IMG/VR virus record: IMGVR_UViG_2663763326_000007
Strand: one strand, 5' to 3'
Length of the DNA: 43,062 bases
Source of the DNA: a virus
Taxonomy: Duplodnaviria; Heunggongvirae; Uroviricota; Caudoviricetes
Shown: positions 39,411 to 40,158 of the stretch, piece by piece
Position numbering within the stretch: position 1 is the stretch's first letter
How the letters are laid out: each line of letters opens with the position of its first letter
Made by a program: the position numbers and the translations under genes
Notes under the pieces: model-generated
What the model was told of the DNA's origin: nothing
Database searches by the model: none
The model's input: only the letters and a program-made list of their open reading frames with translations

Positions 39411-39976
39411 GCACTGCTATCGCTATTGCAAAAGAATATGCCAGTCTGATTGACCTGTTAGAAACCGCCGATGAACTGACGCCAGAGATGATCGCCGACA
39501 CGCTTGAAGGCATGGAAGGAGAACTGGGAGACAAACTGGACGCCATGATGGTCATCTGCCGTAATTTACAGGGCAATGCCAATACCTGCGCTGAAGAAAT
39601 GTCTCGCCTGGCAACCCGTAAGACGTCCTTTGAAGGCAAGGAAAAAGCAATTCGAAAGCATATGCTCACCTGCCTGCAAGCTGCTGGCCTGGATAAACTG
39701 AAAACCGCAAAAAACACATTTACTGATGCACAGGGGGCTATCCGGGTAATTATCGATAGCAAAGATAAGATCCCGGATGAGTATGAGGGCGTGTCACTTG
39801 TTGATGTAGAAACGGTTATTACACCAAACAAGCGAGCCATTAAAGAAGTGATTGAATCTGCGGAGGCGGTTGCCGCCGAAATACTGGCGCGTGGAGAAAC
39901 ACCACCAGCCGAGTTATTAAACCCGGTACCAGGCGCACATCTGGAACGCGGCGAACGGTCACTGAGGATACGCTAA
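39407..39976 (+). CDS. Hypothetical coiled-coil protein, possibly recombination-associated
   Basis: 189-aa ORF overlapping the upstream stop by 4 bp. Confidence 0.4.
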   Translation: MSTAIAIAKEYASLIDLLETADELTPEMIADTLEGMEGELGDKLDAMMVICRNLQGNANTCAEEMSRLATRKTSFEGKEKAIRKHMLTCLQAAGLDKLKTAKNTFTDAQGAIRVIIDSKDKIPDEYEGVSLVDVETVITPNKRAIKEVIESAEAVAAEILARGETPPAELLNPVPGAHLERGERSLRIR

Positions 39977-40158
39977 TGCTTAAACTCACATTAAAGCGTG
40001 GTGACGCGGTTCACCTGGTACTTGCCGATGGTACCAATGGCATTATTGAAGCACGGAGCCGCTGCGAACTTGGGCTACACCTGCCAGAAAACATTAAGGT
40101 CACTCGGGAGAAATCGGCATTCACCCCACAAGAACTGATTACGCCTAATCAGAAATAA
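39976..40158 (+). CDS. Small CsrA/RsmA-like protein (60 aa), tentative
   Basis: By-eye alignment with E. coli CsrA: MLKLTLKRGDAVHLV.. against MLILTRRVGETLMI.., and ..LGLHLPENIKVTREK against ..IGVNAPKEVSVHREE; start overlaps the upstream stop. Confidence 0.35.
   Translation: MLKLTLKRGDAVHLVLADGTNGIIEARSRCELGLHLPENIKVTREKSAFTPQELITPNQK

What the first reader, a model, noticed from the sequence alone, without database searches (positions are those of the whole stretch)
39976..40158. Possible prophage-encoded CsrA/RsmA-like RNA-binding protein
The 60-aa ORF aligns by eye with CsrA over its length (ML-L-T-[KR]-G start and a G..R..P..V.RE C-terminal pattern) and is translationally coupled to the upstream gene. 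A phage CsrA homolog could rewire host post-transcriptional control during lysogeny or induction. The similarity is from memory and may be coincidental.
Basis: inference. Interest (0 to 1): 0.5.

Follow-up and report, generated by a model that had tools for sequence, protein, structure and literature searches.

The report
Small prophage protein faintly resembling CsrA
A real, well-conserved 60-residue prophage gene resembles the RNA-binding regulator CsrA more than chance allows, but only in the two short stretches CsrA uses to grip RNA; it fails every standard test for belonging to the CsrA family, so its function remains an open, testable guess.

Summary
The 60-aa ORF (39976-40158, +) is real. 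It is under strong purifying selection, overlaps the upstream stop (TAATG), and belongs to a small phage family of unknown function (phrog_2482). It lies in the early-left operon of an E. coli ST131 lambdoid prophage, always directly after a YdfE-like "exonuclease" gene and a Gp157/Gam-like gene.

The CsrA resemblance exceeds chance but is partial. An ungapped, in-register comparison with a CsrA profile beats 100,000 column shuffles and all 4,472 unrelated natural ORFs (z about 5.4). The signal comes only from residues 1-10 and 32-46, which correspond to CsrA's beta1 and beta4/beta5 RNA-binding segments, including P37 and R44. Residues 11-31 show no similarity. The CsrA C-terminal helix is replaced by a proline-containing tail ending in a conserved LIxxNQK.

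Family membership is not established. Pfam CsrA gives 13.1 bits against a cut-off of 27, whereas divergent phage CsrA-likes score 32-63. NCBIfam gives nothing. hhalign gives 15-69% probability, against 98.5% for a positive control. The AlphaFold monomer model matches no CsrA structure, and a dimer could not be modelled.

Verdict: possibly a very remote, helix-less CsrA-like nucleic-acid binder (about 0.4). Phage CsrA homologues are already well known, so interest is moderate.

The parts
39976..40158 (+). ORF60: 60-aa CDS (MLKLTLKRGDAVHLVLADGTNGIIEARSRCELGLHLPENIKVTREKSAFTPQELITPNQK). RefSeq WP_000916334.1 'hypothetical protein'; phrog_2482.
   Evidence: purifying selection
39964..39978 (+). 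GAGGA Shine-Dalgarno (39964-39968) and the TAATG stop/start overlap with the upstream gene (39974-39978)
   Evidence: junction conserved at -1..+4 nt in 59/62 sequences
39976..40005 (+). Codons 1-10 (MLKLTLKRGD): block resembling CsrA beta1 (MLILTRRVGE)
   Evidence: block score 15.9 vs null -8.8 +/- 5.3
40006..40068 (+). Codons 11-31: family-specific core (invariant D18, G19, I24, R29) with no similarity to CsrA
   Evidence: P 0.52
40069..40113 (+). Codons 32-46 (LGLHLPENIKVTREK): block resembling CsrA beta4-turn-beta5 (IGVNAPKEVSVHREE). P37 is invariant and R44 is conserved in at least 90% of members.
   Evidence: block score 20.6 vs null -13.3 +/- 6.0; conservation
40135..40155 (+). Codons 54-60 (LITPNQK): conserved C-terminal tail motif LIxxNQK (I55 invariant; N58 and Q59 conserved in at least 90%), absent from CsrA
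   Evidence: low-confidence coil in the model
39407..39976 (+). Upstream gene: Sipho_Gp157 / Mu Gam-like end-protection protein (189 aa)
   Evidence: immediately upstream in 88/88 loci
37194..39410 (+). Large YdfE_N/YdfE_C 'exonuclease'-annotated gene (738 aa) with a RecE-like stretch and a C-terminal domain that is a stand-alone gene in other phages
36843..37163 (+). First gene of the module, 106 aa, phrog_2479, unknown function
40208..40432 (+). Downstream 74-aa ORF (phrog_27062, unknown function). Present in 88/88 close loci but absent in some distant ones.

Best explanation
ORF60 is a genuine, strongly conserved small protein of the early-left (recombination/excision) operon of a lambdoid enterobacterial prophage. 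My best reading is that it is a very remote, helix-less derivative of the CsrA fold. It keeps the N-terminal beta1 strand and the G-x3-P-x2-[VI]-x-V-x-R-E beta4/beta5 segment, at exactly the CsrA spacing, but has a different middle and a new C-terminal tail. I infer that it forms a small beta-rich homodimer that binds single-stranded nucleic acid, most likely GGA-type sites around ribosome-binding sites. It would then adjust translation of phage or host messages after induction or infection, with the conserved LIxxNQK tail docking a partner protein. Shown here: the gene is real and under selection; its operon position and stop/start overlap; its strict linkage to the YdfE-like/Gp157 module; and a resemblance to CsrA that exceeds chance but is confined to two blocks. 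Inferred only: homology rather than convergence, dimer formation, RNA binding, the targets, and the timing of expression.
For: The ungapped in-register similarity to the CsrA profile gives z 5.5 against 100,000 column shuffles, offset 0 is the only positive offset, and both end blocks are individually significant. ORF60 scores 29.4 against a maximum of 13.0 among 4,472 unrelated natural ORFs, and all six divergent family members rank in the top 0.5%. Pfam CsrA is the only hit for ORF60, colinear over residues 1-45 against profile 1-45 of 53. It is the only recurrent hit across the family (12/24, best E 9e-4). hhalign against CsrA alignments gives P 4e-5 to 2e-3, above all 300 shuffles and the reversed control. 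L2, P37 and R44 are at least 90% conserved or invariant; from established CsrA mutagenesis and structure work (own knowledge), these regions include CsrA's key RNA-binding positions. Predicted strands at 2-6, 11-15, 21-25 and 30-34 sit close to CsrA's beta1-beta4. The lack of a beta5 in the monomer model is also seen in a true CsrA control. Phages commonly encode CsrA homologues (PMC8450108).
Against: ORF60 is below Pfam's gathering score (13.1 vs 27 bits), while even the most divergent annotated phage CsrA-likes pass it (32.3, 48 and 62.6 bits). The seven most divergent family members get no Pfam CsrA hit, and there is no NCBIfam hit. The family profile finds no CsrA among PDB sequences at E<=10 and none among 1.84 billion representatives. 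hhalign probability is only 15-69% with an unstable register in the middle, against 98.5% for the Bcep22-type positive control. Residues 11-31, which form the CsrA dimer core, show no similarity. There is no C-terminal helix. The monomer model pairs beta1 within the chain, unlike the CsrA control, and matches no CsrA structure. No Csr-type decoy RNA or GGA enrichment was found nearby. Eighty canonical phage CsrA loci show no link to this module.
Confidence: 0.4

Rival explanations
1. ORF60 is not related to CsrA. It is a lineage-specific accessory subunit of the phage recombination/end-protection module (YdfE-like protein plus Gp157/Gam-like protein). It acts through protein-protein contacts, for example by docking its conserved C-terminal LIxxNQK tail onto Gp157, the YdfE-like protein or a host nuclease. 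On this view the CsrA-like blocks are convergent or coincidental beta-strand motifs.
For: ORF60 lies immediately downstream of Gp157 in 88/88 loci, with the YdfE-like gene present in 87/88. The linkage persists in members only 37% identical, while the downstream excisionase and integrase types change (DUF4224, Exc, HTH_17). The stop/start junction is tight in 59/62 sequences. ORF60 is more conserved (69-80%) than its neighbours (about 45-65%). The most conserved family-specific features (D18-G19, I24, R29, C-terminal I55/N58/Q59) have no CsrA counterpart. All curated CsrA tests fail.
Against: Gp157-type genes occur in 100 phage records, and homologues of the large gene (mostly of its C-terminal domain alone) in 201, but ORF60 is in only 4, so it is not a general partner of either. 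The synteny may simply reflect vertical inheritance within one phage lineage. This reading does not explain the in-register two-block similarity to CsrA. No interaction could be tested here.
Confidence: 0.3
2. ORF60 is an independent small host-takeover or moron-type early protein, in the manner of small lambda or Rac early-left genes such as kil, cIII or ral (own knowledge). It would have a generic small beta fold (SH3/KOW-like or a beta-meander) and a target unrelated to RNA or recombination.
For: Its position among small genes between the recombination genes and xis/int is typical for such functions in lambdoid phages (own knowledge; layout). Five of 24 members give weak SH3_2 hits (best E 0.04). 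The model is a plain four-stranded meander with no significant structural neighbour. PADLOC gives no hit.
Against: Moron-type genes are usually patchily distributed, whereas ORF60 is fixed in every member of the module examined. The SH3_2 hits are fewer and weaker than the CsrA hits. There is no positive evidence for any particular target.
Confidence: 0.2
3. The ORF is a chance open reading frame and not a gene.
For: It is short (60 aa) and annotated only as hypothetical.
Against: pN/pS is 0.07-0.16 across 49 distinct nucleotide versions. It is a full-length member of phrog_2482 (E 2e-36). Homologues down to 37% identity keep the same length and position. It has a good Shine-Dalgarno and a conserved coupled junction.
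Confidence: 0.01

Closest known systems
CsrA/RsmA family of translational regulators (Pfam PF02599), including phage-encoded members such as Burkholderia phage Bcep22 gp54, Vibrio phage VvAW1 gp26 and Escherichia phage Pondi CsrA
   Same: Same size (60 vs 61 aa). The N-terminal ML-L-T/S-x-K/R-x-G-D/E block and the L/I-G-x-x-x-P-x-x-V/I-x-V/I-x-R-E block sit at identical residue numbers (P37, R44), with zero net indel. It is predicted to be beta-rich, with strands near CsrA beta1-beta4. It is carried by a phage, as many CsrA genes are. The closest profile-level relative is the Bcep22-type subfamily, which also starts MLKLELRVGE.
   Different: It scores 13.1 bits against the 27-bit cut-off, while the named phage members score 32-63 bits. 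hhalign gives 15-69% against 98.5% for Bcep22-type vs canonical CsrA. The middle third (residues 11-31, CsrA beta2-beta4) is unrelated. The C-terminal helix is replaced by a Pro-containing tail with its own conserved LIxxNQK end. The monomer model does not retrieve CsrA structures.
phrog_2482 (PHROGs family of unknown function)
   Same: Full-length match, E 2.3e-36, residues 1-60 against profile 1-61 of 61. This is the family the gene actually belongs to.
   Different: The family carries no functional annotation, so membership says nothing about mechanism.
Small accessory genes of lambdoid recombination modules, e.g. P22 arf or lambda/Rac small early-left genes (own knowledge, not tested)
   Same: A small gene embedded in, and co-transcribed with, the phage recombination genes just upstream of xis/int.
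   Different: No sequence similarity was tested or is known. The comparison is positional only.

Membership tests
CsrA/RsmA (Pfam PF02599) | Score at or above the Pfam gathering threshold (27 bits) | tested here: not met
   13.1 bits, E 0.097. The best family member reaches E 9e-4, 12/24 members hit at E<=10, and 7 divergent members get no hit. Control phage CsrA-likes score 32.3-62.6 bits.
CsrA/RsmA (NCBIfam CsrA models) | Match to NCBI's curated CsrA models | tested here: not met
   No NCBIfam family at E<=10. RefSeq names it a hypothetical protein.
CsrA/RsmA | N-terminal beta1 motif M-L-[IV]-L-[TS]-R-[RK] (RNA-binding region 1) | tested here: inconclusive
   ORF60 has MLKLTLKR. Block 1-10 scores 15.9 against a null of -8.8 +/- 5.3. 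L2 is at least 90% conserved, but position 6 is L rather than R, and positions 4-8 vary in distant members.
CsrA/RsmA | G-x-x-A-P-x-x-V-x-[VI]-H-R-E-E segment with R44 (RNA-binding region 2) | tested here: met
   ORF60 has LGLHLPENIKVTRE at the same residue numbers. P37 is invariant and R44 is conserved in at least 90%. Block 32-46 scores 20.6 against a null of -13.3 +/- 6.0.
CsrA/RsmA | Conserved beta2-beta3-beta4 core (residues 11-31) that builds the dimer | tested here: not met
   The block 11-31 score of -19.4 equals the shuffle mean (P 0.52). The hhalign register differs between runs.
CsrA/RsmA | C-terminal alpha-helix following beta5 (about residues 46-58) | tested here: not met
   The ORF60 model is coil from residue 35 to 60, with pLDDT 54-67. 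The CsrA control run the same way has a helix at 47-59. The tail contains P51 and P57.
CsrA/RsmA | Intertwined (strand-exchanged) homodimeric beta-sandwich | not testable with these tools
The monomer model has no CsrA match in PDB or BFVD, but a true CsrA monomer also leaves beta1 and beta5 unpaired, so the monomer test has little power.
CsrA/RsmA | Binds GGA motifs in RNA and regulates translation | not testable with these tools
There is no Csr-type sRNA in the window and no GGA enrichment nearby.
phrog_2482 | Full-length significant match to the family profile | tested here: met
   E 2.3e-36, 124.7 bits, residues 1-60 against profile 1-61 of 61.
SH3-like / KOW-like small beta-barrels | Significant profile match or structural neighbour | tested here: not met

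The most novel reading that the evidence does not exclude
ORF60 and its relatives may be a previously unrecognised, highly divergent, helix-less branch of the CsrA superfamily that HMM-based surveys of phage CsrA miss. This branch would be hard-wired to a YdfE-like/Gp157 recombination module. It would use the retained beta1/beta5 surface to bind single-stranded nucleic acid: either RNA of the module's own operon, or ssDNA recombination intermediates. The new C-terminal tail would recruit a partner.
Probability: 0.15. Interest if true: 0.65.

Novelty: new variant of a known kind. Interest (0 to 1): 0.38.

Why it matters
Phage-borne CsrA/RsmA proteins are already documented and are proposed to manipulate host physiology and CRISPR-Cas (PMC8450108). 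Another ordinary CsrA copy would therefore add little. What would matter is a family that keeps only CsrA's two RNA-contacting strands, rebuilds the rest, and is fixed inside a recombination module. At least 449 of 5,426 complete E. coli genomes hold most of the 1.2-kb query around the gene. Such a family would extend the sequence limits of the CsrA fold. It would show that current HMM thresholds miss part of the mobile Csr repertoire. It would also point to post-transcriptional or single-strand-binding control inside phage recombination operons. If the resemblance is convergent, the gene is still one of the most conserved unknowns of this widespread prophage module and a reasonable target for a small-protein functional study.

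Tried and rejected
- **Family profile searches.** The profile found no CsrA among PDB sequences. Against 1.84 billion representatives it returned only 16 hits: family members, fragments and a few long repeat proteins matching a beta-hairpin motif, with no canonical CsrA.
- **Context link.** I considered that canonical phage CsrA genes might habitually sit next to the exo738 C-terminal domain, as in VvAW1 and phiC725A. I rejected this as a general rule: 0 of 80 canonical-CsrA viral loci (+/-8 kb) contain any gene of the module.
- **Csr-type partner RNA.** Rfam finds none and GGA density is unremarkable.
- **Defence function.** PADLOC gives nothing for ORF60 or its neighbours.
- **Literature.** Searches on Gp157 and YdfE gave nothing about this module.
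- **Low-value or failed runs.** The search for homologous proteins with the CsrA alignment returned only near-identical CsrAs, of little use for diversity.
- **AbrB/MazE-like and KOW-like readings.** I considered these for the GD-x-V-x-V-x-x-DG hairpin from memory. No Pfam support appeared at E<=10.

Full report
**1. What is at the coordinates**

The window contains an ATG-started 60-codon ORF at 39976..40158 on the + strand. Its sequence is MLKLTLKRGDAVHLVLADGTNGIIEARSRCELGLHLPENIKVTREKSAFTPQELITPNQK. The ATG overlaps the TAA stop of the upstream gene (TAATG, 39974-39978), and a GAGGA Shine-Dalgarno lies 7 nt upstream.

The 1.2 kb around the ORF is 100% identical to the chromosome of E. coli O25b:H4-ST131 strain 751. 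There the ORF is annotated WP_000916334.1, 'hypothetical protein'. It lies in a lambdoid prophage inserted at a tRNA-Leu/Cys/Gly cluster next to pgsA-uvrC-uvrY.

The gene order on the + strand is:
- a cI-like HTH repressor gene;
- a promoter-like site at 35951-35979 followed by an ORF-poor leader of about 870 nt;
- a 106-aa gene;
- a 738-aa 'exonuclease'-annotated gene;
- a Sipho_Gp157/Gam-like gene;
- ORF60;
- a 74-aa ORF;
- a DUF4224 xis-like gene, here split by IS150;
- the integrase.

By analogy with lambda this is the early-left operon. That is an inference from the layout.

**2. Is it a real gene?**

Yes.
- It matches phrog_2482 (unknown function) over its full length at E 2e-36.
- Homologues occur in Escherichia, Salmonella, Citrobacter, Enterobacter, Klebsiella/Raoultella, Yokenella and Rosenbergiella. 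They also occur in Stenotrophomonas phage BUCT708/709, Pectobacterium phage ZF40 and at least 123 IMG/VR viral contigs.
- An exhaustive HMM search of 1.84 billion representatives found only 16 hits, so the family is small.
- Across 49 distinct nucleotide versions, pN/pS against the window copy is 0.07-0.16, with synonymous sites close to saturation.
- The tight junction with the upstream gene (-1 to +4 nt) is kept in 59 of 62 distinct junction sequences.

**3. Context**

In 88 of 88 loci the Gp157 gene is immediately upstream and the 74-aa ORF is downstream. The large gene is present in 87 of 88 and the integrase in 85 of 88. ORF60 (69-80% identity) is better conserved than its neighbours (about 45-65%).

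The two distant members whose context could be read (P0043 and P0039, 37% identical) still follow a YdfE_N/YdfE_C-domain gene and a Sipho_Gp157 gene. Their downstream excisionase and integrase types differ (DUF4224, Exc, HTH_17). So ORF60 travels with the recombination module, not with xis/int.

The link is not general, however. Gp157-type genes are in 100 phage records, and homologues of the large gene (mostly of its C-terminal domain alone) are in 201. ORF60 is in only 4.

**4. The curated CsrA tests fail**

- Pfam CsrA (PF02599) is the only Pfam hit. It is colinear (residues 1-45 against profile 1-45 of 53) but scores 13.1 bits (E 0.097) against a cut-off of 27.
- NCBIfam gives nothing.
- Scanned one by one, 12 of 24 family members hit CsrA (best E 9e-4). 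No other family recurs except weak SH3_2 hits in five members.
- The seven most divergent members get no CsrA hit.
- For calibration, the most divergent phage proteins annotated as CsrA-like all pass the threshold: Bcep22 gp54 at 32.3 bits, Pondi at 48 and VvAW1 gp26 at 62.6.
- The family profile finds no CsrA chain among PDB sequences at E<=10 and no canonical CsrA in the exhaustive search.

**5. Profile-profile comparison**

hhalign of the family against different real-CsrA alignments gives probabilities of 15-69% (P 4e-5 to 2e-3, scores 21-27). These scores exceed all 300 column-shuffled versions (maxima 18.5 and 21.9) and the reversed alignment (about 12). The register in the middle of the protein changes from run to run.

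As a positive control, the Bcep22-type CsrA-like family matches canonical CsrA at 98.5% (E 2e-15, score 78). The ORF60 family is therefore far outside the range of recognised CsrA subfamilies. One earlier Python run used an empty file, so its 'bcep.aln' rows are invalid.

**6.

An ungapped alignment at offset 0 between the family profile and a CsrA profile scores 17.1 over columns 1-46. The column-shuffle null is -41 +/- 10.6, giving z 5.5, and 0 of 100,000 shuffles reach the observed score. Offset 0 is the only positive offset among 41 tried.

| Block (residues) | Observed score | Null (mean +/- SD) |
|---|---|---|
| 1-10 | 15.9 | -8.8 +/- 5.3 |
| 11-31 | -19.4 | -18.8 +/- 7.1 (P 0.52) |
| 32-46 | 20.6 | -13.3 +/- 6.0 |

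The signal therefore comes from two blocks only, and the middle shows nothing. The divergent subfamily alone keeps the signal (7.8 against -40.7 +/- 10.1).

Against a more realistic null of 4,472 unrelated natural ORFs of 46-120 aa from all fetched phage DNA (mean -37.7, SD 12.5, maximum 13.0), ORF60 scores 29.4. Close relatives found in the loci score 24-32. The divergent members score -1 to 14, all within the top 0.5%. True CsrAs score above 60 and Bcep22 gp54 scores 44.

The two blocks correspond to CsrA beta1 and to the beta4-turn-beta5 segment with P37 and R44. From established CsrA mutagenesis and the RsmE-RNA structure (own knowledge), these are the two RNA-binding regions.

**7. Structure**

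As a control, a genuine CsrA was run as a monomer through the same pipeline (pLDDT 79.6). It shows strands only at 11-14, 18-26 and 29-35 and a helix at 47-59. Its beta1 and beta5 are left unpaired, because they pair across the dimer.

Hence the absent beta5 in the ORF60 model is uninformative. Two differences are real: ORF60's beta1 is paired within the chain, and there is no C-terminal helix. Instead there is a Pro-containing tail ending in the conserved motif LIxxNQK.

**8. Other checks**

- There is no Csr-type decoy RNA in the window. Rfam finds only isrK and C4-type antisense elements near 30.3-30.5 kb.
- GGA density around the gene and in the operon leader is unremarkable.
- PADLOC finds nothing.
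- One apparent lead did not generalise. The C-terminal domain of the large upstream gene is a stand-alone gene in VvAW1 and in Pseudomonas Hollowayvirus phages, which also carry canonical CsrA in the same early operon. But none of 80 canonical-CsrA viral loci (+/-8 kb) contains any gene of this module.

**9. Interpretation**

The gene is real, and the resemblance to CsrA is more than chance. But it is partial, and no curated criterion for family membership is met.

The single most likely specific mechanism (about 0.4) is a very remote, helix-less CsrA-like dimer that binds single-stranded nucleic acid through the retained beta1/beta5 surface and acts after induction.

The main rival (about 0.3) is a lineage-specific accessory subunit of the YdfE-like/Gp157 recombination module, acting through its conserved tail, with the CsrA-like blocks convergent or coincidental. 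A generic small host-takeover protein (about 0.2) cannot be excluded.

**10. Novelty and score**

Phage- and prophage-encoded CsrA/RsmA homologues are already well documented: 99 phage records, at least 407 IMG/VR contigs, and PMC8450108, which used the Pfam HMM at E<=1e-4. ORF60 would not pass that filter.

If the CsrA-like reading is right, this is a new variant of a known kind. If it is wrong, it is one more conserved phage protein of unknown function. Interest is moderate (0.38).

Noticed in passing
window 40445-41887 (flanks 40442-40444 and 41888-41890): A complete IS150 (1443 bp, terminal inverted repeats TGTACTG/CAGTACA, 3-bp ATG target duplication) is inserted into the DUF4224 xis-like gene after codon 26. 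Intact copies of the prophage in other strains lack it. The prophage may therefore be excision-defective.
   Followed up: partly
window 37194-39410: The 738-aa 'exonuclease/endonuclease'-annotated gene is composite. It has YdfE_N/YdfE_C domains and a RecE-like stretch (residues 233-336). Its C-terminal domain (about 474-664) occurs as a stand-alone gene, variously annotated as 'DNA repair protein', 'exonuclease' or 'single strand-annealing protein', in Vibrio, Pseudomonas, Sulfitobacter and Pelagibacter phages. Its real activity looks unsettled.
   Followed up: partly
L006 (Vibrio phage VvAW1) 1-2713; L258 (Pseudomonas phage phiC725A) 1291-4029: In two unrelated phage lineages a canonical CsrA gene lies in the same early operon as a homologue of the exo738 C-terminal domain. 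The association did not hold in 80 other canonical-CsrA viral loci, so it is probably coincidental.
   Followed up: yes
window 30288-30485 (- strand): Rfam finds isrK (80 bits), C4 antisense RNA (75 bits) and its a1/b1 target element (53 bits). This is a P1/P7-type antisense immunity cassette, upstream (in its own orientation) of the ORF6N-domain gene.
   Followed up: no
window 35951-36842: A promoter-like site (TTGACC-17-TAAAGT) downstream of the cI-like gene is followed by about 870 nt without a convincing ORF before the first gene of the operon. This could be a long leader with antitermination or regulatory RNA elements.
   Followed up: no
window 37175-37196 and 40350-40370: Nearly identical ribosome-binding contexts (TAATGAGGAAAGACC[A]ATG) precede the 738-aa gene and the DUF4224 xis-like gene.
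   Followed up: no
L001 24347-27437 (chromosome beside the prophage): The prophage attachment site at the tRNA-Leu/Cys/Gly cluster lies about 3 kb from uvrY. From general knowledge, uvrY encodes the response regulator that activates the CsrA-antagonist RNAs csrB and csrC. This is most likely a coincidence.
   Followed up: no
proteins P0033, P0036, P0040, P0044: Long proteins (519-3251 aa) match the ORF60 profile many times over a short stretch (mostly residues 8-36). This suggests that the GD-x-V-H-V-V-x-x-DG-x-x-G hairpin is a generic repeat-like beta-hairpin motif. It partly explains why the middle of ORF60 aligns unstably.
   Followed up: no
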